Part shown: positions 29,958 to 42,538 of the stretch, piece after piece | Numbering within the stretch: position 1 is the first letter of the stretch | How the letters are laid out: the number at the start of each line of letters is the position of its first letter | Assembly: GCA_047601765.1 (NCBI GenBank) | Contig: JASGIQ010000005.1 | Location: 8,792-72,791, forward strand | Reading direction: 5' to 3' | Source of the DNA: Aquabacterium sp. | Lineage (GTDB): Bacteria; Pseudomonadota; Gammaproteobacteria; Burkholderiales; Burkholderiaceae_C | Length of the DNA: 64,000 nucleotides | The notes under the pieces: model-generated | The model's input: only the letters and a program-made list of their open reading frames with translations | Databases searched by the model: none | Told to the model about the DNA's origin: nothing | Made by a program: the position numbers and the translations under genes

Positions 29958-30114
29958 GCGCTGCGTGCCAGCGCCCACGGGTACGTAACACCTCGTTTCC
30001 TTGCGACCCTGCCGCCTCCCCCAAAGGTGCGGGGGCGCACCCGGGCCACAAACCTAGAATGGCGCCTGCCCCTCGATGGGCCGCATCCATAAACAGTCAG
30101 GTGAGTTCCCCAAC

Positions 30115-33100
30115 ATGCAAGTCCAGCTGCCCGGCGTGCCGACGGGCATGAGCGGCCTGTCCGGCCTGGGCATCGAGCTTGTCTCGCGCCTCAAGGCTGC
30201 GCTGTCCATCGGCCAGGCCACCCGCCTCATCCAGCTCGACACGCCCCTGCCGGCCGGCACCCTGGTGGTCGAACGCTTCACCCTGCACGAGGCCGTCCAC
30301 GCCGACGAGCCCCTGTGGGCCGAGATCGATGCCCTGAGCACCAACGCCCACCTCGAACTCAAGGCGCTGATGGGCGAGCAGCTCACCCTGCGCCTCATGC
30401 AGGCCGATGGCAGCTGGCGCACCTGGCACGGCTACGTGGTCGAAGCCGGCCACACCGGCAGCGACGGCGGCCTGGGCGCCTACCGCCTCGTGCTGGCGGC
30501 CTTCACCCATTGGCTGAAGCAACGCCGGGACACCCGCATCTTCCAGGACGCCACCAGCGCCGACATCCTCAACCAGGTGCTGGCCGCCTACCCGCAGGCC
30601 CACTTCCGCATCGACGTGGCCGACCCTGGCCCCATCCACGAGATCACCACCCAGTTCAGAGAAACCGACTGGGCCTTTGCGACCCGCCTGATGGCCCGCG
30701 AAGGCTGGAGCTGGCGCGTGGACCACGAAGCCGATCAGCCCCACGGTTCGGCCGATGCCGGCACAAACGCAGACGACAACGCCGATGCCAACGCGCATGC
30801 CGGCGCCCGCGCCGCCCGCCACACGCTGGTGATCTTCGACCAGCATGCCCAGCGCCCCGACCTGGGCCCCTTGCGCTTCAGCCGCCCCGACCTGCGTGCC
30901 GCAGAAGGCGGTGGCCTGCTGGCCGCCATGCTGCAAGCCTTCAACCTGCGCACCGGCACTGCCCAGGACACACTGACCGCGTGGGCCCCGGGCCAGCAGG
31001 TGGGCCCCAACGCCGTCACACTGGCCGCCTGGGACGAGCGCCAACTCGCCGGCGTGAGCGCCAGCACGAGTGCCGACATCCCCCTGGGCCACGCGCCCAC
31101 GCTGGAGCACTACCTCGGCCAGGGCGAACGCCGCTTTGCCGATGGCCGCGTCGGCACCGCCCAGCCCGCCAGCCGCACCGTGGCCGAGGCCCGCGCGCAG
31201 GCCCTGATGGCCGCCCACCAATTGCAGCAAGTGCACGATCGGCCCAAAGCGCCGTGCGCGGCCTGCGCCCCGGCGCCAACTTCCAGATCACCGCCCACCA
31301 CCTGTACGAAGGCCCAGGCGCCGACAACGCCTTCTGCGCCCTGCACATCACCCACGAGGCCGCCAACAACCTGGGCCACCAGGCCGCGCAGATCCTGCAG
31401 CGCACCGAGATCGAACAAGGCAGCTACCGCAACGAATTCCAGGCAGCCCCGGCTTCCCTGCGCCTGGCGCCCCTGCCGGCACAACGCCCACGGCCCCGGG
31501 CCCGCAGATAGCCGTTGTCATGGCCGCAACCGGCGAGCCATTGACCACCGAACGCAACGGCCGCATCCGCATCCAGTTTAGCTGGCAACGCGGCGCGGCG
31601 CCCCTGCCCGGCGCCCTGAACGCCCCGCAGACCCTGCCCGGCGGCGACACCGGCCATGCCCCTGGCGACGACCGCAGCGGCACCTGGGTGCGCGTGGCCC
31701 AGGGCGTGGCCGGCCCCAACTGGGGCGCCGTGTTCACCCCCCGCGCCGGCACCGAAGTGCTGGTCGACTTCATCGATGGCGACATCGACCGCCCCATCGT
31801 CATCGGCCAGCTGCACAACGGCCAGCACGACCTGCCCTGGCCCGCCGGCGTGGACGCCGGCGCCAACCACCCGGGCACGATCTCTGGCTGGCACCACACC
31901 CACCTGGACGGCCAGGGCGCCAACCAATGGCTGATCGACGACGCCACCGGCCAGCTGCGCATGCGCCTGCTCACGCACAGCCCGGCCACCGGCCACAGCG
32001 AACTGACGCTGGGCCACATCGTCCAGCAAAGCGCGCAGGGCGGCTCAGGCCAGGCCCAACGCGGCCCATGGCTGGGCGAAGGCTTCTACGGCTACACCGA
32101 TGGCTGGGCCGTGCTGCGCGCCGGCGAAGGCCTGCTGCTGAGCACCACCCCGCGCCCCGCGATGGGCGCCAGCGTGCACAGCACCCAGATGGACGCCGCC
32201 GAAGCCGTGGGCCAGCTCAAGGCCAGCCGCCAACTGGGCGACGCCCTGAGCCAAAGCGCCCGCCAGCAAGGCGCCCTGGGCCTGGCCAGCCACGACGCCA
32301 GCCAGGCCCTGCAGCAACACACCGAAGCCATGGACCCGGCCGCTCGCGGCAAATACGAAGGCCCGGTGGGCGGCCAGGAAGCCCGCAAGGCCCAGGCCCA
32401 CAGCCGCACCCTGGCCGACCCGGTGGAACGCTTCGCCCAGCCCCTGCTGCACCTGAACACACCCACCACCGCCGCCTGGGTGACCCCGGCCAGCATCAGC
32501 CTCTTTAGCGGCCAGGACACCAGCCTCACCACCCAGGGCGACCTGCACCTGACCAGCGCCCACTCCGTGAGCTGCGTCAGCGGCCAGACCACCAGCCTCT
32601 ACACCCACGCCGGCGGCATCAAGGCCATCACCGCCAACGCTGACCTGAGCCTGCGCGCCCACACGGATGCCATGCAGATCTGGGCCGACCAGGACGTGAC
32701 CATCCAGAGCACCACCGACGAGATCCGCATCCAGGCCAAGGACAGCATCGCGATCAACGCAGGGCAAAGCCAGGTGCTGATCCAGGGTGGGGACGTGACG
32801 TTCACCTGCCCGGGGACGTGGACGGTGAAGGCGGCGACGCATGATTGGTTGGGGGGTGGGAGCCAAGCAGCGGCTTTTCCAGCCTTACCAAGTTCTCTTG
32901 TCGCGCTCTATTCGGCCAAGATGAGGCTGCTGGATGAGCAGACTGGTGAGCCCTTGGGTGAGATGCCTTATTTCATCCGGCTGGAGGGCGGAGTCGTGAC
33001 GCATGGCGTCACCGACGCAGATGGCTACACAGACATTGCAACTGGCGATGCGGCTGAACGCGGCAAGGTTTACATCGGCCATGAAGCCATGAAGTTGATC

Positions 33101-33121
33101 GCCAAGCTGGGGGCTCGGTAA
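30115..33121 (+). pseudogene. vgrG: Orphan VgrG with DUF2345 and C-terminal extension, split by two -1 frameshifts (real pseudogene or assembly error)
   Basis: VgrG motifs run through three frames: QFRETDWAFATRLMAREG (frame of 30076), SAVRGLRPGANF..YRNEFQAAP (after about 31238), then GRIRIQFSWQRG..WVRVAQGVAGPNWG..PRAGTEVLVDFIDGDIDRP (after about 31488). Confidence 0.85.
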
Positions 33122-33972
33122 TGGTTTCACCTTTCCAAATTCTGCTGTCGGAACAACCGGCTCCGGTTGTGCAAAAAATCGAGATGCCGCTGACGTCTGG
33201 GCGTTATAGGGTGGGCGAACCAAAGCGGCCCGCCATCGTCCACGACAACGGCTTTCTGGATCGATACCCTCGGCGCGAACCCACTGGTGAGGACAGAAGA
33301 AGTTTTGCAACCTGGGTTGCCATATTGGAAGGCTCTGAAGCTGTATGCAATGCTCAAACCGGCGATATGGTGGGGCCCTGTGGCGGGAACCTCGTGGATG
33401 CCAATGCGGCCTATCGGCACTTCCTCTTCGGTAAAGGAGCCGATCGCCACTTGGATTACGAGCGCTTCATCGAAGGCGACCCGACCGGCAGGCGGCTGCT
33501 TGAAAGCCTGATTGCGGATTTCAAGACGCATGGGACTGTGCTGTCCAAAAACAGGAAGAAGGTCTCGATCACCAGTGATCCGTACCAGGTTGGCGGCGAA
33601 AAAGGCTTTGTTGGCTACCCGGAAACGGCAAATTGGCAAAAGGCTTTAGGTGCACACGTGCTGTGGGTGAGCGGGACGATTGAAGTCTCTGTTTCCAAGG
33701 ACCACAAGCTCATGTACAGAGCAGAGATGGTTGCGCATGTCGAGGATCGCTACAATTTCAATCCCGGAAATGCCGACGTTAAAACCGGCATCAAGGATGA
33801 AGAAAATGGTCAATTCGAGTTGTGCGGGTTGGCTCAGCAGTACACAAATTTCGGCGAGTTGCGCCGCACGCTTGAATGGCACGAAGGCGACACGTACGCA
33901 GTGCAGACCAATGAGCGTTCCGGGCGTACAAGAATGCCAAATGACAACCGAAGATTGAGGAACAGACTGTGA
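33121..33972 (+). CDS. Hypothetical protein, candidate VgrG-delivered effector (283 aa)
   Basis: Start overlaps the vgrG stop (TAATG), composition is AT-richer, and a lipoprotein gene follows. No catalytic motif recognised. Confidence 0.6.
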   Translation: MVSPFQILLSEQPAPVVQKIEMPLTSGRYRVGEPKRPAIVHDNGFLDRYPRREPTGEDRRSFATWVAILEGSEAVCNAQTGDMVGPCGGNLVDANAAYRHFLFGKGADRHLDYERFIEGDPTGRRLLESLIADFKTHGTVLSKNRKKVSITSDPYQVGGEKGFVGYPETANWQKALGAHVLWVSGTIEVSVSKDHKLMYRAEMVAHVEDRYNFNPGNADVKTGIKDEENGQFELCGLAQQYTNFGELRRTLEWHEGDTYAVQTNERSGRTRMPNDNRRLRNRL

Positions 33973-34445
33973 GACAGCTTTGGAAAATCATGCTCACAGC
34001 GTTGTTCCTTGCGGGGTGTGGAATGAATAGCTCATCAGCTATGAAAAGTGACGTGACAGAGCTTCGCTCGATCATTCACATTGATGCTGCGATCTCGTCG
34101 GCGAGATGGGAAATGTTTTCTACGCCAGAGTCCTCAGAAGGCGGAGGGCCAACGGATTTTGTGAGTCTCGTAGCAGAAATCCGACCGCCGATTAATTCAA
34201 CTGCTGCAGTGCACGGGCCTGCAGAAACAGACGCCATATTCGTCGTGCCGGGGGCCGCTCGCGCATGGTTGAGTCCTGCGAGCTACAGCGTGATCAGCAA
34301 GATGCGCAATAGCCCTGTAATCACTGGAGACTGGCCCGGTTGCCGTCGCGTGGACGTCAAGGGGGCAAAGTCAGGTCGGACCTTGAAGGCCTTCGCGTGT
34401 CATCAAGGTGATCTATCCTTGATTTACGTAAATCTGTTGCCTTGA
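33969..34445 (+). CDS. Lipoprotein, candidate immunity protein (about 158 aa)
   Basis: Signal peptide with lipobox FLAG-C. GTG start overlaps the upstream stop (GTGA); alternative ATG at 33990. Confidence 0.7.
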   Translation: MRQLWKIMLTALFLAGCGMNSSSAMKSDVTELRSIIHIDAAISSARWEMFSTPESSEGGGPTDFVSLVAEIRPPINSTAAVHGPAETDAIFVVPGAARAWLSPASYSVISKMRNSPVITGDWPGCRRVDVKGAKSGRTLKAFACHQGDLSLIYVNLLP

Positions 34446-34583
34446 GGCCGTGCCGATCGTCTGTTGAATATCTGCTAAGCAGCGGTTGCGGCTCGTAGCT
34501 TCAAGCGGTTCGACTCACGCTTCCCGGCAAGAAGCGGAAATTGGGCTTGGCAAACTGTATTGACCCAGCGGTTTCTGCACAGG

Positions 34584-35405
34584 TCAGGCTGCTAAAGCAT
34601 AAGCCTCAGCAGGTGTCTTCATGCCCAACGCCTGGTGAGGGCGTCGGTGGTTGTAAAAGCCGATCCAGTCTGCGATCACGCGGCTGGCGTGCTGCAGGGT
34701 TTCGAATCGGTGGCGGTGCACGCACTGGTCTTTGAGTGTCCTGATCACGCGCTCGACCATGCCGTTTTGCTCCGGGCTGTACGGTGTGATGAACTCCTGC
34801 TGCAGGCCATAGCTTTTGACCAGGGCCGTATAGCTACGGCTGGTGAACACCAGTCCGTTGTCTGACCTCAGCAAGAACGGATGGCGGACTCTGCCCAGAC
34901 AGCCGTAACGGGCAATCAGCGCTTGTTCCAGTGCCGCCTCAGCGGTCTTGGATCGGCCGCTGCGGCTGAGGTGCCAGCCCAGCAGTTCGCGGCTGTAGCA
35001 ATCGATCACCAGGGCCAGCGAAGCCCAGCCGTCACGCCCGGTCCACACGCGGCACAAATCTGTGGACCAGCGCTCGTCTGGCGCCTTGGCCACTGAAGGC
35101 AACGCCTGGATGCGAGGCCTGAAGCCCACCGGGCGCTTGCGCACCTGCCAGCCCTTGAGCTGGAAGATGCGCTGCACGGTGTTCTTGTTGAAGCCGAGCA
35201 GGTGCGCCACGGTGCGGTAACCGAAGGACGGGTTCTCTTCAATCATCGCCTTAATGGGCTTGACGAGGTGCTCCTGAACCTTCGGCGCGGCCTTGGTGCT
35301 GCGGTAGTACACCGTGCGCCGAGGCATCTCGAACCACTGGCACAGCTTGACCAGGCTGACCTTCAATCCTTCTTCAGCCAGTCCCTGCTGAAGGCCGAGG
35401 ATCAT
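34584..35405 (-). CDS. IS3 OrfB DDE transposase (integrase core)
   Basis: WSTDL, VIDCYSRELLGW, LRSDNGLVF, PEQNGMVERVIRTLK, YNHRRPHQALG. Confidence 0.95.
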   Translation of the reverse strand: MILGLQQGLAEEGLKVSLVKLCQWFEMPRRTVYYRSTKAAPKVQEHLVKPIKAMIEENPSFGYRTVAHLLGFNKNTVQRIFQLKGWQVRKRPVGFRPRIQALPSVAKAPDERWSTDLCRVWTGRDGWASLALVIDCYSRELLGWHLSRSGRSKTAEAALEQALIARYGCLGRVRHPFLLRSDNGLVFTSRSYTALVKSYGLQQEFITPYSPEQNGMVERVIRTLKDQCVHRHRFETLQHASRVIADWIGFYNHRRPHQALGMKTPAEAYALAA

Positions 35406-35719
35406 TTCTCGTCCTCGTTGCCCAGCAGGGACGCCAGCTTTTTTCTGGCACGCAGCTCCAGCATGGCTTCGCCATAGGCCTCCTGCAGTTCGCGCAGTTG
35501 CTTCTCGTACTGCTCTTTGACTTCCAGGGGCTTGGTGCGCAGGGCGTTCTCCATGCCGCGCTTGCCTTCATCGACCCACTGCTCCACCTCGGACGGGTTG
35601 AGATCGAAGGCCCGGCTGGCCTCCGAGATCGTGGTCTTGCCTTGGATGATGTCCAGGACCAGGGCCGTCTTACGCTTGGCCGTCCAGCGCTTGATGTCGT
35701 CTTCCATCAGGGTGCTCAT
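35402..35719 (-). CDS. IS3 OrfA HTH protein (DUF1153-like)
   Basis: KRWTAKRKTALVLDIIQGKTTISEASRAFDL. ATGA overlap with orfB, and an in-phase A-AAA-AAG slippery site at 35438-35444. Confidence 0.9.
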   Translation of the reverse strand: MSTLMEDDIKRWTAKRKTALVLDIIQGKTTISEASRAFDLNPSEVEQWVDEGKRGMENALRTKPLEVKEQYEKQLRELQEAYGEAMLELRARKKLASLLGNEDEK

Positions 35720-35963
35720 CGTCGTTTCCTTCAACGTTAACACCTGAGCAGGAATTCACTGGGTCAATACAAAACGGTAAGAGCGTGAAAGTCCGATGTG
35801 CAAGGTCAAGCGGTCGTACGACCTGTTGCGGCTGGGCAATTTCTCAATGGCTACTGCTTTGCGGCGCAAACCGGAAGTACCAAACAAACCAACAAGGACC
35901 CCACATGGGGCCTTGTTTCCATCCGGGTCCACCAAGCCGCCCAGCCCGCAGAGCGACGCCGGT

Positions 35964-38900
35964 TCAACCGTCCCCGAACTCTGCCCCTTCGGGTTCCTTC
36001 GGCAAGTCATAAAGCAGCACCGGAGTTTTGGTCACAAAGAGCGTAACTAGCCGCACCGGCCGCTCTTCAGGAGCCTTCTTTGCCCACATGGCCCCTTCCT
36101 GAGCAGCCCTGGCCAAGAATCGGAACTGAGCCTTAATCTCGGCATCCTGGTGGCGAGTCAGCGGGGAATAAGGTGGCCGCCAGTCTGGCTCAAGCAGAAC
36201 CTGGAAGACCTCGAGCATCTCGCGCAGCGTCTCCGGCGCAGAGTCCTTGTGCCGCATCACACCTTCCATTAGGTGCCGCACCACCTCGCCCAGCGCCATC
36301 AGTCTCATGCCTCGCATGGCGGCCAGCGCGACGAAGGACTTCACGATTCCGTAGGTGCTCTCAAAGTGCACTGTCGGCTTGGCCAAGTAAGCCTTGAGTC
36401 GCACAACGCCAAAACGCACCCAAGGAGTGCTCTGCTGGAATAAGACCCAGAGGTCCTCCGGAGTCAGCGGCACGAAGGAGCGGTTGGAGAACAGCAGCCG
36501 TAGGGCGCTCAGCGAATACCGATGACGGGTCAGGAACCCTTGCTCTGTGGCATGCTGCAGCAGCACCTGAGGCCAGACACCTCTCACTTGAACCTGATCG
36601 GCCATCTGGCGAAGCCGCAGATCGGTCGTGATTAGGCAGAGACTTCGCTCGAGTGCGGCGTCAAGCACCGAAAACTCTTCGGGCGAGAGGATGCGCCCAA
36701 CTCGGCTCAAGAACTTCGGCCTGTGCTCAGGGCCATAGGCAGGAACGACCTTGCAATAACGCTCTAATGCGTCGATGGCCGACTGGGCTTGCCGTCGGGC
36801 GTGTTCTCTGGCCTGCTCGGTGATCTCTACAAAGCGCATCTGCCCGTTGTCGTCGAGCAGTTGACCTTCTGGCCCCTTCTCTCTGAGCTCTTCGAGCTTG
36901 TGACGCAGAACGCCCTCGGTCTCGGTGGTGGCGTATACCTCCCCGATCGCAGCCAGGGCATCAGTTGCGTCAAGCAATACCAACTCTGTGATCGTAGGGG
37001 CGTCGATGAGGTAAGCGTTGTCCTTGTCAGCCAACACAGCTCGGGCGCGCTCGAGCTCCTCGGCGTTGCCGTCGTTCACGTACAGCGGCCCATCGTCAAG
37101 GCCTGTCATCCAGCCGTTGACAATGTCCACCGCGTTGTTGCCCATCAAGCGGCCTAAGCCGCCGAGCGTGAACGGCAGTTCTTGATAGCTTTTGAGGGCC
37201 TCGCGGATCCGCTCGCTCTGGCGCTTGAGCGTCTGGTGGACCTCTGAGAAGTCGGGGTCACCGCCCGGCTCCTTGCGCACCTTGACCATCCACAGGTTTG
37301 GCACCGGCTCGACGCTAGACTCGACCTGGACCTGGGCGAGCTTCAGCTGGCGTGCATACGCAGAATCAAGCGACAGCACGCGGTACACCCGCAGGCCGCC
37401 AAACCCCGTGTCGATGCGGACTTCGTCCCCGACCGCTCTTCCCAAGAACTCCTGCACTGCCGTGTCGCCGGCCGACTTGAACTCGGTATCCTGCGGAAGG
37501 CCAGGAAGCTCCTTGGGGTCAACCGTGACATGGACGGTGCCCGACGGCCCTTCCAGCGTGACGTGCACGCCAGGCGTGACGACATTCGGGAACTCGTGGA
37601 GACCAGCAATCGGCTCGTTGTAGGCAAGGTACGCCATTATCAGAGCCGACGCCGACTCGATCTTGGCCGCGTTCAGGCGCCTCATCTGGTAGAGACGCTG
37701 CATAGCCTTGCCCTGCAAGCCTAGGCGCAGCTCCAGCAATGCGAGCTGCGAGACCTGCTGGATAGGCCCGATCAGCCCCAACGGCGCTCTGCCAATGAAT
37801 TCCTTCAGCTCCGCCGCAGGCAGCTCTCGGCTGCCCACCATGTACTTGAAGAGCCAACTGCCAATGTCGTCTGGTTTGCGGGCGAACTGGGCGTCGGCAA
37901 GACGAGTCAGCAGTGGCCAGTCGCCTGCCTCGCGGGCGATCTCGATTGCCAGGGAGCGCAGTTCCTCGTTGTTTTGCCAGCCATCGGGCAGGCGTTCGAG
38001 TACCTCCTTGGCCTTTCGGCGACCGCCTGAGCGCAGCAGGCTGTGGAGAAGCCGCGCGTGCAGCTCCCCCGCCCCTTCTGAGGGCAGCACCGACTCGTAG
38101 AACTTGGCCGCTCTCTTGAAGTCCCTGAGGTCGGAGTAGAGGTCGGCCAGGAGCAACCGGACTTCCGCGGGCGGCTTCTTGCCAGCGAGCTGTCGAACAC
38201 GCAGGAGCGCTGCTTCGCTCTTGTGTTTGTCGCTCGGCCGAGCCAGCCGGGTAACAGCGGCGAGCAGCGCGATGCTGTTGGACTCCTCGATCACGAGGCC
38301 TTGCAGCTCCTGAGCAACTTCCCCTCGCTGCTTGGCGTTCCACATCGCCAGCCATTTGGTGGCGCGAAGGAGCTCCTTGACGTCGGACTCAATGTCTTCT
38401 CGAGCGAGCGTCCGCTCGTAGATCTGCTGGGCAACCCCAACTTCGCCGCGATTGGCCGCAACCTGCGCCAAAGCAACCAGCCCACCGTCTTGCAGGTAGG
38501 AAAGGTTCTCTAAACCAAGCGCGAACATTGCCTCGACCTGGCCGGTGTCGTGAAGGGCTTCGAGTTCGACGCGAATCAGCTCAGACCGAGACCGCTGATT
38601 GACTCGCGCTTCCTTGGCAACTTCGAGGGCCTCGCCCGGGTTGCCTTGCAGCAGGTAAACCGCCGCCAAGTTGGAAGCAACCACCGACACCGCCTCGTCG
38701 GCCTGAATGGCCCAGACCCGCTCGGCGCGGGGCTCCAGGGAGTCGCTCACTGCCTTCAGCATCCGCTTGTGCTCGGCGGTGAGCACACGCAGGGCGGTGT
38801 GGACGTTGTTCTGGGCGACAAGGTCCAGGACGTGTGCGAGAGCCGCCGCCCGAACGTAGAAGCCCGGCTTGTCGGCAGTCAGCGAGCGCAGGGAGACGTC

Positions 38901-40370
38901 GGCTGCCTCTTGGAGACGCCCGACCTTGTGCAGGCCGGCGGCGATGAGCTGCAAGGCGTCTGCGCCATTGCGGTGCGCCTCAGGAATGCTGCTCTCTTCG
39001 GGCACCAGCCCATTGATGATCTCGGCATTAGCATTGGCAGTCCAAACGAAGATGGACTCAGGGAAGCGCTCACGGGCAAGGCGGCCAGCTTCAAGTGCTT
39101 CTGGGAGCTTGTTTGCAAGCAGAAGGCCGCGGACCTTGGCTGCTGCATTGCGCTCGTCGTCCGGGAACGCTTCCTCGGCTTTGAGGAAGTCTCGTGCTGC
39201 GGCCGCTGTGGAGCCTCTGTGCCAATGGCAGGTTGCCTGCAAAAGGTACCAGCGAGACTTCTGGTAGTCGTCGAAATTAGCGAGATACGCTTCCAGACTC
39301 GCAAGTCGATTCTGGGCGTCTTGGTAGCGGAACGCCTTGATGAGGTCGTTGACGCCTTCGAGCTCCGTGGTTGCCCAGCGGTTGGCCGAGTCTTGTCGCG
39401 CGTCACCGACTGCCGCGCTGTCCATGAGCGGTGTGCTGGCAGCACCTACGGCAGCTTTGAAGGCAAAGCTGTCATCAAGAAGCTCGCGGTCCGTCGCGGC
39501 TACGACGGGTTGGACCTCGACGACCTCACCGCCAGCTTGGCTGGCCCGGTGTCGTTCAAAGTCGGCAACAAGCTGCGCAGAGTCTAGCTGGCTGCGCAAG
39601 GTGAGTCGGGTGACAGTGGCGGCCTGCTCGTTGAGCCGCTGGCAAATCGTGACCAGGGTGTTCCAGACGTTGGCCGGCCCCCCGTGGCGGTGTTTACCTA
39701 GCGCCCAGCCGATCTCCTTGATGAGGTTGTTGACGTCGGCCGAGTCATTCGTCGCAAGCCGGTGTTCCAAGAACCAGAGGTGCCGACAAAAGCCATACAG
39801 GTCGTCGTCCGAGAGGGCAGTCTCGGTCTCTTGCTCAACGACTTTGCGGATCGCTGCGAGGGCATCGCGCTGGTCGCTCGAGCTGTAGCCCTCCGACAGG
39901 GCTGCCCTCAGGAAGTCGGCAGAGTTGGCGGCAGCCCGTGCCTTCGAGCAGACCTGGGATGCCGCGTGAACGGTGCCAGTCCCCGAGTCGCGGGAATAGA
40001 CGATGACGATGCGGTCAACGTCTCGCTTGAACTGCGCGCCTGCGTCGTAGTCGTGCCAGGCGTCGGTGATCGAGTCCTTGAAGGGGGTGTCTGAGACACG
40101 AGCCTTCAAGGTGAGCTTGACTTGCATGGCAACCTTGAAGGTACTGCCGTCGTCGCGCTCCACCGTGCAGATGAGGTCGTCGGTGTTAAAGCCGTGGATC
40201 CGGCCCTGAAACCTCATCTCCGTGATCTGGCTGTGCGCAAGGAAGCGCGAGTCGTCACCGCTCAGCAGGGCGAGCAAGTAGCTCGCCTGCACGCGCGACT
40301 CGAAGTGGCCTCCCTCCCCGGAGGTGGACGCCGGGCTCGAGAGCTTTTTGGGGCCTTTTTTATTTGCCAT
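35964..40370 (-). CDS. Candidate defence/conflict protein: REase-like nuclease - TPR - GreA/B-C-terminal - PIN (1,468 aa)
   Basis: N-terminal GGHFE..TDDL..QVK nuclease-like motif; long helical TPR region; GVHVTL..EFLGRAVGDEVRI..YRVLSL (GreA/B C-terminal fold-like, about 37370-37580); YLIDAPT..EE..LITTDLRLR (PIN-like, about 36480-37020). Confidence 0.75.
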   Translation of the reverse strand: MANKKGPKKLSSPASTSGEGGHFESRVQASYLLALLSGDDSRFLAHSQITEMRFQGRIHGFNTDDLICTVERDDGSTFKVAMQVKLTLKARVSDTPFKDSITDAWHDYDAGAQFKRDVDRIVIVYSRDSGTGTVHAASQVCSKARAAANSADFLRAALSEGYSSSDQRDALAAIRKVVEQETETALSDDDLYGFCRHLWFLEHRLATNDSADVNNLIKEIGWALGKHRHGGPANVWNTLVTICQRLNEQAATVTRLTLRSQLDSAQLVADFERHRASQAGGEVVEVQPVVAATDRELLDDSFAFKAAVGAASTPLMDSAAVGDARQDSANRWATTELEGVNDLIKAFRYQDAQNRLASLEAYLANFDDYQKSRWYLLQATCHWHRGSTAAAARDFLKAEEAFPDDERNAAAKVRGLLLANKLPEALEAGRLARERFPESIFVWTANANAEIINGLVPEESSIPEAHRNGADALQLIAAGLHKVGRLQEAADVSLRSLTADKPGFYVRAAALAHVLDLVAQNNVHTALRVLTAEHKRMLKAVSDSLEPRAERVWAIQADEAVSVVASNLAAVYLLQGNPGEALEVAKEARVNQRSRSELIRVELEALHDTGQVEAMFALGLENLSYLQDGGLVALAQVAANRGEVGVAQQIYERTLAREDIESDVKELLRATKWLAMWNAKQRGEVAQELQGLVIEESNSIALLAAVTRLARPSDKHKSEAALLRVRQLAGKKPPAEVRLLLADLYSDLRDFKRAAKFYESVLPSEGAGELHARLLHSLLRSGGRRKAKEVLERLPDGWQNNEELRSLAIEIAREAGDWPLLTRLADAQFARKPDDIGSWLFKYMVGSRELPAAELKEFIGRAPLGLIGPIQQVSQLALLELRLGLQGKAMQRLYQMRRLNAAKIESASALIMAYLAYNEPIAGLHEFPNVVTPGVHVTLEGPSGTVHVTVDPKELPGLPQDTEFKSAGDTAVQEFLGRAVGDEVRIDTGFGGLRVYRVLSLDSAYARQLKLAQVQVESSVEPVPNLWMVKVRKEPGGDPDFSEVHQTLKRQSERIREALKSYQELPFTLGGLGRLMGNNAVDIVNGWMTGLDDGPLYVNDGNAEELERARAVLADKDNAYLIDAPTITELVLLDATDALAAIGEVYATTETEGVLRHKLEELREKGPEGQLLDDNGQMRFVEITEQAREHARRQAQSAIDALERYCKVVPAYGPEHRPKFLSRVGRILSPEEFSVLDAALERSLCLITTDLRLRQMADQVQVRGVWPQVLLQHATEQGFLTRHRYSLSALRLLFSNRSFVPLTPEDLWVLFQQSTPWVRFGVVRLKAYLAKPTVHFESTYGIVKSFVALAAMRGMRLMALGEVVRHLMEGVMRHKDSAPETLREMLEVFQVLLEPDWRPPYSPLTRHQDAEIKAQFRFLARAAQEGAMWAKKAPEERPVRLVTLFVTKTPVLLYDLPKEPEGAEFGDG

Positions 40371-40624
40371 CCTGCAGCTGAGCATTATCTTGCAAGCCGC
40401 AGCCACCCCAGGCAGTTATCCGGGCACTTTGAGATCCAGCCGAGTGTCAACCTTCGGGTTCGCTACTGGCGTTCAGCGGTCGCTGATGGCGGGCGCCGTC
40501 GAATGGCCGGGTCCGGACGGCGGCGGCTCTCTCTTGCGGAACGAGTGACCGGCCCTAGCCTAAAGCAGCAGCACAAGACCCAAAGGGCAATGCACGGACT
40601 TGGCCAATCGCTACGAGACCTACC

Positions 40625-41047
40625 TCACCCCTCCTTCCCATCCCCCGCCCCCTCCTCCATCCAAATCGCCCCCCACAAGTGCCCATCCGGATCCGCCAGA
40701 TCCCGGCCATACATGAACCCCAACTCCTGCACCGGGTTCACATCCGCCTGGCCACCATGCGCTGCGGCTGCCACGTTCATCGCGTCCACCGCCTCGCGGC
40801 TCTCCAGGGTGAGTGAGAGCATCACGTTCGCGGCCCCTTTGGGCGGCAGGGGCAGGTCAGTGAAGGTGCGCCACTTGGCGTGCGTCAGCAGCATCACGTA
40901 GATCGCCTCGCTCCACACCATGCAGGCGGCAGAGCTCTCGTCGCTGTACTGCGGGTTCAGCTCAAACCCCAGCGCCTGGTAGAAGGCCACCGAGGCCTGG
41001 AGGTCGGCAACGGGGAGGCTCACGAAAATCATCTTCTGGGTGCTCAT
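40625..41047 (-). CDS. VOC/glyoxalase-family protein (140 aa)
   Basis: MIFVSLPVADLQASVAFYQALGF..MYGRDLADPDGHLW. Confidence 0.92.
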   Translation of the reverse strand: MSTQKMIFVSLPVADLQASVAFYQALGFELNPQYSDESSAACMVWSEAIYVMLLTHAKWRTFTDLPLPPKGAANVMLSLTLESREAVDAMNVAAAAHGGQADVNPVQELGFMYGRDLADPDGHLWGAIWMEEGAGDGKEG

Positions 41048-41220
41048 GGCGTTTCCTTGCTTGATCAGTCAATCGTCAGTCAGTGATGGGTGGTGACGTT
41101 TGCGGCCCCCTGAATGCAGCCGCCTCACCCACACAACGAGCCAGCACCTCCCAAATCGACACAAAGAAGCACGACGCCGCCCCCGCCCACCCAACCTCGC
41201 GCACCACCTCAGCGTTGCCA

Positions 41221-41322
41221 GACTGGCGCGACGGGTGGCCAACGCAGCGAAGTAAAGGAGGAGGGTCCGGCGCAGCCGGAGCCGGGGGACATGAGCGAAG
41301 TTGGCCACCCGTCGCGACAGTC
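41221..41322. repeat. Palindromic intergenic element: 23-bp inverted repeat arms with an internal hairpin
   Basis: GACTGGCGCGACGGGTGGCCAAC (41221-41243) matches the reverse complement of 41300-41322 at 22/23. Internal TCCGG-cgcag-CCGGA at 41266-41280. Confidence 0.8.
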
Positions 41323-41429
41323 CCGCTCCACCGCACAAACGCCACAAATCCACCCCCCTAACTTGACAGTCCCACACCAACCCACATGACTTTTGACAGG
41401 TGTGACCGTGTACCCTCAAACCTACAGTC

Positions 41430-41445
41430 CGTGACATCCATCACA
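41430..41445. promoter_or_regulatory. Possible CRP/Vfr/Clp-family binding site upstream of tssA
   Basis: CGTGA-catcca-TCACA matches TGTGA-N6-TCACA at 9/10, 52 nt before the tssA ATG, in a lower-GC intergenic region. Confidence 0.35.
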
Positions 41446-41497
41446 CCTTCTGGGTGAAGATAGTTGGCTTGAGCATTACCCCCCATCGGACCACCCC

Positions 41498-42538
41498 ATG
41501 TCTCTGATCGACGTCGACTCCCTCCTGGCCCCGCTTGGCGACAGCCAGCCCTGCGGCCCGGATCTGGAATACGACAGCGCCTTCCTCGCCCTTGAGGAAG
41601 CGGCGCGCGGCAAGCCCGAGCAACAGTTCGGCGACACGATCATCCCCGGTGAAGACCCTGACTGGCGCAAAGTGCAAACGCTCTCCCAGGAGCTGATGGG
41701 ACGCACCCGCGATCTGCGCGTCGCTACGCACCTTCTGCGTGCATCCACCCGCCTGCAAGGCCTGGGCGCCGCCGCCGACGGCCTGCGCCTGATCCAGGGC
41801 CTGCTCTCCCAGCACTGGGATCACGTCCATCCCATGCTGGATGCCGACGACAACAACGACCCCACCATGCGCCTGAACGCGCTGGCCCCCCTGGTCGATC
41901 CCCAATCCTTCCTGCTCGATCTGCGCAAGGCCACCCTGGCCGGCGGCCGCAGCAGCGTCACCGGCCGCGAGGTTGAAATCGCCTCTGGCAAGGCCCAGGC
42001 GCACGAAGGCGAAGCCACGATGCCCATGCCCGGCGTCATCCAGGCCCTGCAGGATGCCGAGGCGCAGCAGCCCGGCCTGCTCACCGCCTTGTCCGGCATG
42101 TCCGACACGGTGGCCGCCATCGATGCCGTCATCTCCGAGCGCGCCAGCATCTCCGGCCCCGAGTTTCGCCCCCTGCGCGTCTTGACGCAGATCATCAGCG
42201 ATGCGGCCCGCCAGGCGGCGGGTGCGGCAGCGGGCACAGAATCGAATGCGGCGGCAGCGGATGTGGGTGGCGGCGACCTGTCTGGCGCAGGTCCCGCCGC
42301 CCACGGCGCTGCGCTGGCTCAACCGGGTGTGCTGCGCACGCGCGATGACGCCATCCAGGCGCTGGAAAAGGTGTGCGCGTGGCTGGAAACCCACGAGCCC
42401 TCCAACCCCGCGCCCTTGCTGATCCGTCGCGCGCAACGCCTCATGAGCAAGAACTTCGTCGACATCATCAAGGACCTCGTGCCCGACAGCATCGATCAGA
42501 TCGGCAAGCTGGCGGGTGTGAAGTTCGACGAGTACTGA
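41498..42538 (+). CDS. tssA: T6SS TssA (ImpA N-terminal domain) (346 aa)
   Basis: GPDLEYDSAFLALE..DWRKV..RTRDLRV at the N-terminus; TRDDAIQALEKVCAWLETHEPSNPAPLLIRRA at the C-terminus. Confidence 0.93.
   Translation: MSLIDVDSLLAPLGDSQPCGPDLEYDSAFLALEEAARGKPEQQFGDTIIPGEDPDWRKVQTLSQELMGRTRDLRVATHLLRASTRLQGLGAAADGLRLIQGLLSQHWDHVHPMLDADDNNDPTMRLNALAPLVDPQSFLLDLRKATLAGGRSSVTGREVEIASGKAQAHEGEATMPMPGVIQALQDAEAQQPGLLTALSGMSDTVAAIDAVISERASISGPEFRPLRVLTQIISDAARQAAGAAAGTESNAAAADVGGGDLSGAGPAAHGAALAQPGVLRTRDDAIQALEKVCAWLETHEPSNPAPLLIRRAQRLMSKNFVDIIKDLVPDSIDQIGKLAGVKFDEY

What the first reader, a model, noticed from the sequence alone, without database searches (positions are those of the whole stretch)
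35964..40370. Stand-alone 1,468-aa nuclease-TPR-GreA/B-C-PIN protein: candidate single-gene anti-phage system
Seen: four parts in one ORF. These are an N-terminal GGHFE..TDDL..QVK motif (40117-40370 area), about 800 aa of TPR-like helices, a segment resembling the GreA/GreB C-terminal domain (37370-37580), and a C-terminal PIN-like domain (36480-37020). It lies in an accessory island beside an IS3, with no partner gene. Established: this (P)D-(D/E/Q)xK type N-terminus resembles Cap4/Avs-type effector nucleases; PIN domains are RNases; the GreA/B C-domain binds RNA polymerase; and TPR-GreAB-C-PIN architectures have been computationally predicted as conflict systems. Inference: a sensor with two effectors that watches RNA polymerase or a phage protein and then cuts DNA and/or RNA (abortive infection). 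I know of no experimental characterisation.
Basis: partly seen in the sequence, partly recalled or inferred. Interest (0 to 1): 0.82.

Follow-up and report, generated by a model that had tools for sequence, protein, structure and literature searches.

The report
Single-gene nuclease-TPR-GreA/B-C-PIN defence candidate
This is an intact 1,468-residue gene of the computationally predicted 'TPR-GreA/B-C-PIN' bacterial immunity family, carrying a built-in DNA-cutting head domain. It travels as a small mobile cassette and is a good but not unprecedented candidate for a one-gene anti-phage system.

Summary
Window 35964-40370 (-) is a real, intact gene of 1,468 aa, under purifying selection (dN/dS 0.18 against a 94% relative).

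All four parts were confirmed:
- An N-terminal restriction-endonuclease-fold domain. AF2 pLDDT is 89, and the best PDB matches are Lamassu LmuA and a Hachiman entry. E24, D64/D65 and Q83-x-K85 are invariant.
- A TPR-like helical region of about 590 aa, not about 800.
- A GreA/B C-terminal domain. Foldseek probability is 1.0, and a profile hits Gfh1 at 2.4e-4.
- A PIN domain of Pfam PF20698 (E = 1e-18). A conserved helical tail follows it.

The architecture is not new. Kaur et al. (eLife 2021) predicted TPR-GreA/B-C-PIN systems with swappable N-terminal effectors, including REases. One member, E. coli Bab/Agp, has since been shown to abort T5 infection.

New here:
- The N-terminal module has no Pfam model.
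- The same module heads Avs4 proteins.
- Sibling proteins carry an Mrr-like nuclease in its place.
- The gene sits in a ~4.9 kb cassette found with the same ends in three unrelated contexts. Here it lies inside a T6SS cluster, with a later IS3 insertion.

No partner gene is conserved. Function remains untested. Verdict: new member of a known, mostly uncharacterised kind.

The parts
35964..40370 (-). Whole gene: 1,468 aa plus stop codon. Order of parts: REase-like nuclease, linker, TPR, GreA/B-C, PIN, C-terminal helical domain.
   Evidence: ORF and translation. There are 23 full-length homologue clusters at 33-94% identity. dN/dS is 0.18 against the 94% relative, and GC3 is 0.76 against GC2 0.43.
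39531..40319 (-). N-terminal effector module, aa ~18-280. The PD-(D/E)xK / REase-fold core is aa 20-126 (39993-40313), followed by a helical bundle (aa 132-279). Putative catalytic residues: E24 (40299-40301), D64/D65 (40176-40181), Q83 (40122-40124), K85 (40116-40118).
   Evidence: AF2 gives pLDDT 89 and pTM 0.86 with alpha-beta-beta-beta-alpha-beta topology. Foldseek finds LmuA 9hr5_C at E = 1.4e-4, probability 1.0, TM 0.46, and the Hachiman entry 8zue_A at 1.5e-3. Residues are invariant. No Pfam, PDB-sequence or PADLOC match. 1,179 cluster representatives carry the module, including Avs4 proteins.
39366..39530 (-). Poorly conserved, length-variable linker (aa ~281-335).
   Evidence: The alignment has gaps and low conservation in columns 355-440. 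pLDDT is below 50 from aa 282.
37596..39365 (-). TPR-like helical array (aa ~336-925); presumed sensor or oligomerisation scaffold.
   Evidence: Pfam TPR_7 scores 29.7 bits against a 27.9 cut-off at aa 740-762. TPR_12, TPR_2, TPR_16, TPR_8 and TPR_1 are sub-threshold at aa 342-405, 561-588 and 735-762. Conserved W/A/L/P positions run throughout. This region was not modelled structurally.
37359..37580 (-). GreA/GreB C-terminal-type domain (aa ~931-1004). It lacks the Gre N-terminal coiled-coil finger.
   Evidence: Foldseek finds 2pn0 (E = 2.8e-3), Gfh1 3aoi, Rnk 3bmb and GreB 2p4v, all with probability 1.0. Profile A6 hits Gfh1 at E = 2.4e-4 and GreB at 7e-3 over residues 81-154. PF01272 is weak at E = 0.14. 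The model shows TPR-type helices, not a long coiled coil, before the domain.
36561..37025 (-). PIN domain of the PF20698 type (aa ~1116-1270) with a beta-hairpin insert (aa 1169-1182). D1123 and D1250 (in a T-T-D motif), C1206 and Q1268 are invariant.
   Evidence: PF20698 E = 1e-18 / 4e-20, above its cut-off. Foldseek finds PAE2754 (TMt 0.64), VapC4 and HARP with probability 1.0. Profile A5 hits HARP at E = 2.3e-3 and TTHA0540 at 7.9e-3, with D1250 aligned to their conserved Asp. Invariants come from 38 sequences.
35967..36560 (-). Conserved C-terminal helical domain (aa ~1271-1460) of unknown role. It is conserved across all aligned homologues and so belongs to the constant core.
   Evidence: The AF2 blocks here have pLDDT 88-98 and are all-helical, with two short terminal strands. 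It is conserved in all homologues. No Pfam hit. dN/dS is 0.14.
34471..40568 (-). Mobile 'cassette': the gene plus ~200 bp of 5' flank and ~270 bp of 3' flank, interrupted here by IS3. The same end points occur in three unrelated genomic contexts.
   Evidence: blastn gives window 35772-40568 plus 34479-34553 contiguous at 94% in L062-L065. In L001 the matches are 35785-40566 plus 34471-34555 at 82% and 79%.
34556..35771 (-). IS3-family element (orfA 35402-35743, orfB 34584-35405), inserted 189 bp downstream of the stop codon. It is not part of the system.
   Evidence: Pfam HTH_Tnp_1 and rve. The 20-bp terminal inverted repeats are at 34556-34575 and 35752-35771. The 4-bp direct repeat AAAC flanks it, and uninterrupted relatives lack it.
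35897..35912 (-). Terminator-like hairpin 52 bp after the stop codon.
   Evidence: Consensus scan only, with 6 sites found against 4.6 expected, so this is weak.

Best explanation
The gene encodes a self-contained member of the TPR-GreA/B-C-PIN ('TGP') family of predicted anti-phage / anti-mobile-element immune proteins, with an N-terminal LmuA/Cap4-like PD-(D/E)xK DNase as its effector.

Most likely mechanism:
1. The constant core is the TPR array, the GreA/B-C domain, the PIN domain and the C-terminal helical domain. It acts as the sensor.
2. The GreA/B-C domain docks on the rim of the RNA polymerase secondary channel, as it does in GreA, GreB and Gfh1. It has no Gre coiled-coil finger, so it cannot stimulate intrinsic transcript cleavage.
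3. When a phage takes over or modifies RNA polymerase, or a phage protein binds the TPRs, the protein changes state and self-associates.
4. Self-association brings the N-terminal nuclease domains together and switches them on. This is how LmuA is activated in Lamassu and, by established knowledge, how the nuclease heads of Avs proteins are activated.
5. DNA is degraded and the infection aborts.
6. The PIN domain may cut nascent or extruded transcripts as a first line, or it may be a regulatory or structural part of the sensor.

Shown here: domain folds, conserved catalytic-type residues, purifying selection on every domain, effector swapping, sharing of the head domain with Avs4, mobility, and absence of a conserved partner.

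Inferred: RNAP binding, the trigger, oligomerisation, both nuclease activities, and anti-phage function itself.
For: Family membership:
- PF20698 is above its cut-off.
- GreA/B-C is supported by fold and profile evidence.
- The published family definition, with REase among 13 alternative N-terminal effectors, is in PMC8195603.

Effector nature of the N-terminus:
- A confident REase-fold model resembles LmuA and a Hachiman entry.
- E24, D64/D65 and Q83xK85 are invariant.
- The same module heads Avs4 proteins, with the PADLOC Avs4 model matching at 1e-159 to 2e-246 from residue ~270 onward, and other STAND/NACHT NTPases.
- 26 of 50 genome loci match the query only from residue ~274-348 onward. 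Twelve of their N-termini were read; they share one ~150-aa pattern, and two of the three scanned match Pfam Mrr models, one of them above its cut-off.

Functionality: dN/dS is 0.10-0.23 in every domain.

Defence or mobile context:
- A plasmid type I R-M island.
- GmrSD, ScoMcrA and SNase neighbours.
- Tn7-like cargo.
- A position directly after HsdR.
- A neighbouring Cap4_nuclease + 611-aa pair.
- Gabija, HerA and ResIII among immediate neighbours.
- HsdR + HD + DUF4145.
- Burkholderia plasmids.

Rarity: 50 loci in 185,579 species genomes.

Mobility: the same 4.9 kb cassette occurs in three contexts.

Experimental precedent: Bab/Agp gives abortive infection against T5 and needs the GreA/B-C domain. 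Infection triggers Agp-dependent assembly of its N-terminal motif.

Activation by oligomerisation for LmuA: PMC12663957.
Against: - No member with a nuclease head has been tested.
- In Bab/Agp no activity of the TGP core alone was seen. The PIN mutant D762N merely destabilised the protein, so a catalytic role for PIN is unproven.
- Across the wider family only two acidic PIN residues (D1123, D1250) are invariant; E1129 is not.
- The N-terminal domain matches LmuA only at fold level (TM ~0.46, 12-14% identity). It matches no Pfam or PADLOC nuclease model.
- Some homologue loci have purely housekeeping or metal-resistance neighbours, so the defence-island signal is moderate and I could not compute an enrichment statistic.
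- PADLOC v2 does not recognise the protein.
Confidence: 0.7

Rival explanations
1. Same family, but a different division of labour. The PIN RNase is the main effector, cutting transcripts or tRNA/rRNA once recruited to RNA polymerase. The N-terminal REase-fold domain is a catalytically silent nucleic-acid sensor or an oligomerisation adaptor.
For: The PIN is the family's defining constant domain. D1123 and D1250 are invariant, D1250 lies in a T-T-D motif, and it aligns to the conserved Asp of the PIN-like HARP RNase P and TTHA0540. PIN dN/dS is 0.17. Kaur et al. propose PIN as the first line of defence.
Against: The N-terminal position is where the family swaps known killing domains such as TIR, SIR2, HNH and proteases. 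The module keeps a full E...D...QxK set across more than 1,000 representatives and serves at the effector position of Avs4. In Bab/Agp the core alone gave no protection.
Confidence: 0.15
2. A selfish or competition module rather than phage defence. It could be an addiction or stabilisation gene of the cassette or plasmid, or an anti-plasmid / anti-conjugation system. In this view it would be triggered by disturbance of transcription rather than specifically by phages.
For: It is found on plasmids and Tn7-like elements and moves as a minimal cassette. Nothing in the sequence specifies a phage trigger.
Against: No antitoxin-like partner or conserved small ORF lies in the cassette. The only tested relative is anti-phage. 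Its neighbours are largely anti-phage systems.
Confidence: 0.08
3. A type VI secretion accessory or effector, because the gene sits between the vgrG-effector-immunity module and tssA.
For: The location is between vgrG (30076-33121) with a putative effector/immunity pair and tssA/B/C.
Against: - It runs in the opposite orientation to the T6SS genes.
- No PAAR, MIX, Rhs or adaptor domains were found.
- The same cassette at 94% and 82% identity lies in non-T6SS contexts.
- Cassette ends fall cleanly in the intergenic space.
- The nearby vgrG itself is frameshifted.
Confidence: 0.02
4. A housekeeping transcription or RNA-quality-control factor: a Gre-like RNAP secondary-channel protein with an attached RNase.
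For: It has a GreA/B-C domain and a PIN RNase fold.
Against: - It occurs in only about 50 of 185,579 species genomes, with patchy taxonomy.
- Neighbourhoods are variable.
- It is carried on plasmids and transposons.
- The N-terminal effectors are swappable.
- Several homologue reading frames end early in other genomes.
Confidence: 0.02

Closest known systems
TPR-GreA/B-C-PIN ('TGP') conflict systems predicted by Kaur, Iyer, Burroughs and Aravind, eLife 2021 (PMC8195603); Pfam PF20698
   Same: It has the same constant core in the same order (TPR, GreA/B-C, PF20698-type PIN). It has a variable N-terminal effector, for which REase is explicitly listed. It is a mostly stand-alone gene with few conserved neighbours.
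   Different: Nothing architectural differs; this is a member. The specific ~260-aa LmuA-like head has no Pfam model. I could not check whether it is one of the REase versions in that paper's supplementary data.
Bab/Agp amyloid-signalling abortive-infection system of E. coli ECOR25 (bioRxiv 10.1101/2024.11.07.622273)
   Same: Agp has the same TPR-GreA/B-C-PIN core. Its N-terminus is the output end. It is located in defence islands.
   Different: Agp (1,094 aa) carries a ~25-aa BASS11 amyloid motif and needs a separate pore-forming partner, Bab. The window protein carries a folded nuclease domain in cis and has no partner gene.
Lamassu LmuA / CBASS Cap4-type PD-(D/E)xK effector nucleases
   Same: It shares the REase core plus a helical extension. 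LmuA entries are the best structural matches (9hr5, 9nxx). The catalytic-type motif is D...(E/Q)xK. LmuA is switched on by oligomerisation.
   Different: There is no detectable sequence similarity: PF14130 gives no hit and identity is 12-14%. TM-score is only ~0.46. The domain is fused to a TGP sensor rather than an SMC-like LmuB or a SAVED domain.
Avs4 (AVAST type 4) STAND NTPase defence proteins
   Same: The same N-terminal module (25-31% identity over ~250 aa) sits at the effector position of proteins whose remainder matches the PADLOC Avs4 model.
   Different: The window protein has no STAND NTPase. The sensor part is TPR-GreA/B-C-PIN instead.
GreA/GreB/Gfh1/Rnk RNA polymerase secondary-channel factors
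   Same: It has the C-terminal globular domain, which in those proteins anchors them to the beta' rim helices.
   Different: It has no N-terminal coiled-coil finger with an acidic tip, so it cannot reach the active site. The domain is embedded in a 1,468-aa multidomain protein.

Membership tests
TPR-GreA/B-C-PIN (TGP) conflict system (PF20698 family) | C-terminal PIN domain of the PF20698 type | tested here: met
   PF20698 scores E = 1.1e-18 and 68 bits against a 27.8 cut-off at aa 1122-1258, and 4e-20 on the excised segment. The PIN fold is confirmed.
TPR-GreA/B-C-PIN (TGP) conflict system (PF20698 family) | GreA/B C-terminal domain immediately upstream of the PIN | tested here: met
   Foldseek finds GreA/GreB, Gfh1, Rnk and GreB with probability 1.0. 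Profile A6 hits Gfh1 at E = 2.4e-4. Pfam PF01272 is only E = 0.14.
TPR-GreA/B-C-PIN (TGP) conflict system (PF20698 family) | TPR array upstream of GreA/B-C | tested here: met
   TPR_7 is above its cut-off and five other TPR models are sub-threshold. The region was not modelled structurally, so its extent (~590 aa) is approximate.
TPR-GreA/B-C-PIN (TGP) conflict system (PF20698 family) | Variable N-terminal effector or effector-associated domain on a constant core | tested here: met
   Among 50 genome loci, 24 match from the LmuA-like head onward. 26 match only from residue ~274-348 onward; the N-termini read from 12 of these share an Mrr-like pattern. The core aligns throughout.
TPR-GreA/B-C-PIN (TGP) conflict system (PF20698 family) | Stand-alone gene, sporadic distribution, conflict-system neighbourhoods | tested here: met
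   152 different Pfam families occur among 147 immediate neighbours, and none is conserved. Defence or mobile neighbours appear. No formal enrichment test was done.
TPR-GreA/B-C-PIN (TGP) conflict system (PF20698 family) | Anti-phage activity; binding to RNA polymerase | not testable with these tools
   Needs experiments. The only precedent is Bab/Agp.
Bab/Agp amyloid-signalling system | N-terminal BASS11 amyloid motif on the TGP protein | tested here: not met
   The N-terminus is a ~260-aa folded REase-like domain with pLDDT 89.
Bab/Agp amyloid-signalling system | Adjacent Bell-domain (Bab) partner gene | tested here: not met
   There is no conserved neighbour and no conserved small ORF in the cassette flanks.
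Cap4 / LmuA-type nuclease (Pfam PF14130 Cap4_nuclease) | Sequence match to PF14130 | tested here: not met
   No Pfam hit at E <= 10 for aa 1-300, nor for 20 members of the module at E <= 1.
Cap4 / LmuA-type nuclease (Pfam PF14130 Cap4_nuclease) | REase alpha-beta-beta-beta-alpha-beta core with acidic and (E/Q)xK residues; structural similarity to LmuA | tested here: met
   E24, D64/D65, Q83 and K85 are invariant. LmuA 9hr5_C scores E = 1.4e-4, probability 1.0, TM 0.46.
Cap4 / LmuA-type nuclease (Pfam PF14130 Cap4_nuclease) | Metal-dependent DNase activity switched on by oligomerisation | not testable with these tools
   Inference from LmuA (PMC12663957).
Avs / STAND NTPase defence proteins | Central STAND P-loop NTPase | tested here: not met
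   The window protein has no NTPase, AAA or STAND Pfam hit and no PADLOC hit. Only the head domain is shared with Avs4.
GreA/GreB transcript-cleavage factors | N-terminal coiled-coil finger carrying the catalytic acidic tip | tested here: not met
   The residues preceding the Gre-C domain are short TPR-type helices in the model. Profile and fold matches cover only residues ~81-154 of Gfh1 and GreB.
VapBC-type PIN toxin-antitoxin | Small PIN toxin with an adjacent antitoxin gene | tested here: not met
   The PIN is an internal domain of a 1,468-aa protein, and the cassette has no partner ORF.
Type VI secretion effectors | PAAR/MIX/Rhs/adaptor-binding marker, or conserved linkage to vgrG | tested here: not met
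   No such Pfam domains were found. The same cassette lies outside T6SS loci elsewhere.

The most novel reading that the evidence does not exclude
The protein is a one-chain 'transcription guard'. Its GreA/B-C domain keeps it parked on host RNA polymerase. Phage-induced modification or hijacking of the polymerase is the signal that makes it oligomerise and fire an LmuA-like DNase, with the PIN cutting the phage transcripts in the secondary channel. That would be the first immune receptor shown to monitor the integrity of RNA polymerase directly. It would also be a minimal model for the whole TPR-GreA/B-C-PIN family, in which sensing, first-line RNase and suicide DNase can be separated by point mutations in a single gene.
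Probability: 0.3. Interest if true: 0.75.

Novelty: new member of a known kind. Interest (0 to 1): 0.42.

Why it matters
How TPR-GreA/B-C-PIN proteins sense infection is unknown. It is also unknown whether the Gre-like domain really reads out RNA polymerase takeover. The only tested member needs a second protein and an amyloid relay.

A member with its killing domain in cis would be a simpler system for three experiments. It has clear candidate catalytic residues in two nuclease domains and a compact 4.9 kb native cassette.
- Mapping the trigger through phage escape mutants.
- Testing RNAP binding.
- Asking whether the PIN has any catalytic role.

The work also flags a widespread effector head domain that no Pfam model covers. 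It has about 1,200 cluster representatives and is shared by TGP, Avs4 and unclassified ~1,180-aa proteins. Defence-annotation pipelines could use it. PADLOC v2.0.0 and NCBIfam both miss this gene.

Tried and rejected
- PADLOC and NCBIfam on the whole protein gave no hits.
- PDB sequence searches with the N-terminal 300 aa, the C-terminal 569 aa and the N-terminal profile found nothing meaningful. Only fold comparison worked.
- Pfam on the N-terminal module of 20 members found no shared family.
- A word-indexed search with the N-terminal domain alone, and later with the PIN profile, returned almost nothing. The exhaustive representative search was needed.
- tblastn of the Gre-PIN half against 50,697 phage genomes gave no match.
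- Rfam on 33000-42000 gave nothing at E <= 0.1.
- A search for a conserved small partner ORF in the cassette flanks found only frames conserved because the DNA is conserved.
- An exact-sequence look-up of the neighbouring TssB, meant to find an 'empty site' genome, returned only a 1.2 kb contig. I therefore could not show the insertion site without the cassette.
- I looked for att-like repeats at the cassette ends by eye and with the repeat finder. Nothing convincing emerged beyond a short GCTGCTT(T)AG similarity in the window, so no mobilisation mechanism is claimed.
- I could not retrieve the Agp sequence to align it directly.
- The T6SS-effector and housekeeping readings were considered and rejected (see the rival explanations).

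Full report
**1. The observation**

The minus strand of window 35964-40406 carries the longest ORF in the region. The ATG at 40370 gives a 1,468-aa product beginning MANKKGPKK, which is the start shared by homologues.

The ORF is not a high-GC artefact:
- GC3 is 0.76 against GC2 0.43.
- 23 clusters of full-length homologues exist at 33-94% identity.
- dN/dS against the 94%-identical relative is 0.18 overall and 0.10-0.23 in every domain.

The gene is intact and under purifying selection along its whole length.

**2.

(i) N-terminus.
- Pfam, NCBIfam, PADLOC and PDB sequence searches find nothing.
- An AlphaFold2 model built on 20 diverse sequences is confident (pLDDT 89, pTM 0.86).
- It shows helix 20-37, strands 47-54, 66-72 and 77-85, helix 95-109 and strand 120-126. 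That is the restriction-endonuclease core. A helical bundle follows to residue ~279.
E24 is on the first helix. D64/D65 are just before the second strand. Q83-x-K85 is at the end of the third.
- These residues are invariant in full-length homologues and nearly invariant in distant carriers.
- Foldseek against the PDB returns Lamassu LmuA nucleases first (9hr5_C, E = 1.4e-4, probability 1.0, TM 0.46; 9nxx). An E. coli Hachiman entry (8zue_A, E = 1.5e-3) comes next.

(ii) TPR.
- TPR_7 is just above its cut-off, and several TPR models are sub-threshold between aa 342 and 762.
- The helical stretch is about 590 aa, not 800. I did not model it.

(iii) GreA/B-C.
- The model of aa 880-1468 (pLDDT 89.8) matches GreA/GreB (2pn0), Gfh1, Rnk and GreB, all with probability 1.0.
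- A profile of 38 family sequences hits Gfh1 at E = 2.4e-4 and GreB at 7e-3 over their entire C-terminal domain.
- No Gre coiled-coil finger precedes it.

(iv) PIN.
- Pfam PF20698 ('PIN domain associated with the TPR-GreAB-C-PIN system') matches at E = 1e-18, above its cut-off.
- The fold matches PAE2754, VapC4 and HARP.
- Across 38 sequences D1123 and D1250 are invariant. D1250 lies in a T-T-D motif in the window protein. It aligns with the conserved Asp of HARP and TTHA0540.

(v) C-terminal helical domain.

**3. What the family is**

The architecture is published. Kaur, Iyer, Burroughs and Aravind (eLife 2021, PMC8195603) described a conflict system with a constant but fast-evolving TPR-GreA/B-C-PIN core.
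- Its N-terminal EAD10 domain is replaced in other members by one of 13 effectors, including REase and HNH DNases.
- The systems mostly occur as stand-alone genes.
- The authors proposed that the Gre domain engages hijacked RNA polymerase, that the PIN cuts the transcript, and that the N-terminal effector is a back-up suicide arm.

One member has since been tested: Agp of E. coli ECOR25.
- Together with the adjacent pore-former Bab, it confers abortive-infection resistance to T5.
- The GreA/B-C mutations S628L and L634P abolish resistance.
- T5 infection triggers Agp-dependent assembly of its N-terminal amyloid motif.
- No Bab-independent activity was seen.
- The PIN mutant D762N was unstable.

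**4. The N-terminal head is a shared effector module**

An exhaustive search finds 1,179 cluster representatives carrying it at E <= 1e-3, nearly always at the extreme N-terminus. The proteins fall into several length classes:
- ~1,450-1,510 aa (TGP).
- ~1,680-1,720 aa.
- ~1,170-1,190 aa.
- ~700 aa.
- ~300-330 aa, stand-alone.

The 1,700-aa class has STAND NTPase hits. It matches the PADLOC Avs4 model at E = 1e-159 to 2e-246 from residue ~270 onward. The head therefore occupies the Avs4 effector position.

Within the TGP family itself, 24 of 50 genome loci match the query from the LmuA-like head onward. The other 26 match only from residue ~274-348 onward.
- I read the N-termini of 12 of the 26. 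They share one ~150-aa pattern: FE...G-x-D-[VI]-F...IQCK.
- Two of the three scanned match Pfam Mrr_cat or Mrr_cat_2, and one of them (L044, Mrr_cat_2, 26.8 bits against a 22 cut-off) is above its cut-off.

Swapping one nuclease for another on a constant core is the signature of an effector position.

**5. Genomic context**

In the window the gene lies between a T6SS vgrG-effector-immunity module and tssA/B/C, in the opposite orientation. blastn defines the shared unit.
- The unit is window 35772-40568 plus 34479-34553.
- It is contiguous at 94% in four metagenomic contigs, L062-L065.
- In a plasmid-like contig of Pseudaquabacterium (Rubrivivax) pictum the two pieces match at 82% and 79%.

The unit is thus a ~4.9 kb cassette: the gene, ~200 bp upstream and ~270 bp downstream. 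The IS3 element (34556-35771) has 20-bp inverted repeats and a 4-bp AAAC duplication. It is a later insertion into the cassette's 3' flank.

The three hosts of the same cassette are unrelated in context:
- A T6SS cluster here.
- A Cap4_nuclease + 611-aa gene pair.
- A plasmid island with an SbcCD-like pair and a type I R-M system.

More distant homologues sit in these places:
- Beside GmrSD, ScoMcrA and SNase genes.
- Inside a Tn7-like transposon.
- Directly after hsdR.
- After HsdR + HD + DUF4145.
- On Burkholderia plasmids.
- In an arsenic-resistance island.

Among 147 immediate neighbours from 39 genome loci there are 152 different Pfam families and none is conserved. Gabija, HerA and ResIII proteins recur, alongside many ordinary metabolic genes. 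The pattern-based scan found 50 loci in 185,579 species genomes, mainly Burkholderiales and Pseudomonas.

The picture is a sporadic, mobile, partner-less gene with moderate defence-island association. I could not compute a formal enrichment.

**6. Mechanism**

Shown:
- The domain folds and the conserved catalytic-type residues.
- Selection on all domains.
- Effector swapping.
- Sharing of the head with Avs4.

Inferred:
- The constant core senses infection, most plausibly through the Gre domain's contact with RNA polymerase and/or TPR-ligand binding.
- Sensing drives self-association.
- Self-association activates the head DNase.

The inference rests on three points.
- Agp's N-terminal motif assembles on infection.
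- LmuA is activated by oligomerisation (PMC12663957).
- By established knowledge, STAND/Avs proteins activate N-terminal nucleases by tetramerisation.

Whether the PIN is catalytically active is open. Only two acidic residues are invariant across the wider family, and the Agp PIN mutant was uninformative.

**7. Rivals**

- A PIN-centred version of the same system is the main alternative (0.15).
- An addiction or anti-plasmid role cannot be excluded (0.08).
- T6SS-effector and housekeeping readings are contradicted by the cassette's other locations, the lack of T6SS markers, its rarity and its mobility (about 0.02 each).

**8. Verdict**

- The thing is a new member of a known, computationally defined family with one experimentally studied relative.
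- It differs from that relative in having the killing domain in cis.
- It is a sensible experimental target but not a surprise to a specialist.

Noticed in passing
window 30076-33121 (+): The T6SS spike gene vgrG is split over three reading frames. The gp27-like part runs in the frame of 30076 up to ~31240. The middle part (GANFQITAHH...YRNEFQAAP) is in the frame of ORF 30315-31511. The gp5/DUF2345 part runs from ~31490 in the frame of 31520. That means two frameshifts, so it is either a pseudogene or an assembly indel error.
   Followed up: partly
window 34556-35771: This is an intact IS3-family element of 1,216 bp. orfA is 35402-35743 and orfB is 34584-35405. It has 20-bp imperfect terminal inverted repeats and a 4-bp AAAC target duplication. 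Relatives of the cassette at 94% and 82% identity lack it, so the insertion is probably recent.
   Followed up: yes
window 34471-40568; L062 3770-8646; L001 9763-14646: The defence gene travels as a ~4.9 kb cassette whose homology starts and stops at nearly the same bases in three unrelated contexts. It carries no recombinase of its own and has no clear terminal repeats. How it moves is unexplained.
   Followed up: partly
window 33121-33972 and 33969-34445 (+): Two overlapping ORFs lie directly after vgrG in a low-GC stretch (0.56) and have no Pfam hit. The second begins with a lipoprotein-type signal (LFLAGC). They look like a T6SS effector/immunity pair of unknown family.
   Followed up: no
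proteins P0077, P0084 and about 50 others of 1,150-1,220 aa: A large class of ~1,180-aa proteins carries the same N-terminal nuclease module. The remaining ~900 aa have no Pfam or PADLOC match. This may be an undescribed defence architecture.
   Followed up: partly
L062 413-3534 / L063 348-3469: The closest relative of the window gene lies next to a Cap4_nuclease (PF14130) protein of 429 aa and an overlapping 611-aa gene with no Pfam hit. The pair resembles DUF4297-HerA-type systems, but this was not verified.
   Followed up: no
L010, L040, L052: In three genomes (a Curvibacter MAG, a beta-proteobacterial MAG and Neopusillimonas aromaticivorans) the tblastn match spans nearly the whole protein. 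The reading frame nevertheless ends after 1,004, 314 or 300 codons. These are likely frameshifted copies or assembly errors.
   Followed up: no
L001 14703-22674; L060 2568-5648; L053 3292-9270: TGP genes sit beside type I restriction-modification genes in several loci. In L060 the gene starts at the last bases of hsdR. The arrangement recalls the way PrrC-type nucleases are embedded in type I R-M operons. It occurs in only 3 of ~48 loci, so it may be no more than defence-island clustering.
   Followed up: partly
window 40625-41047 (-): A glyoxalase/bleomycin-resistance (VOC) family gene ends 57 bp before the cassette's upstream end, on the same strand. It is not part of the shared cassette. 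Read-through transcription into the defence gene is possible.
   Followed up: no
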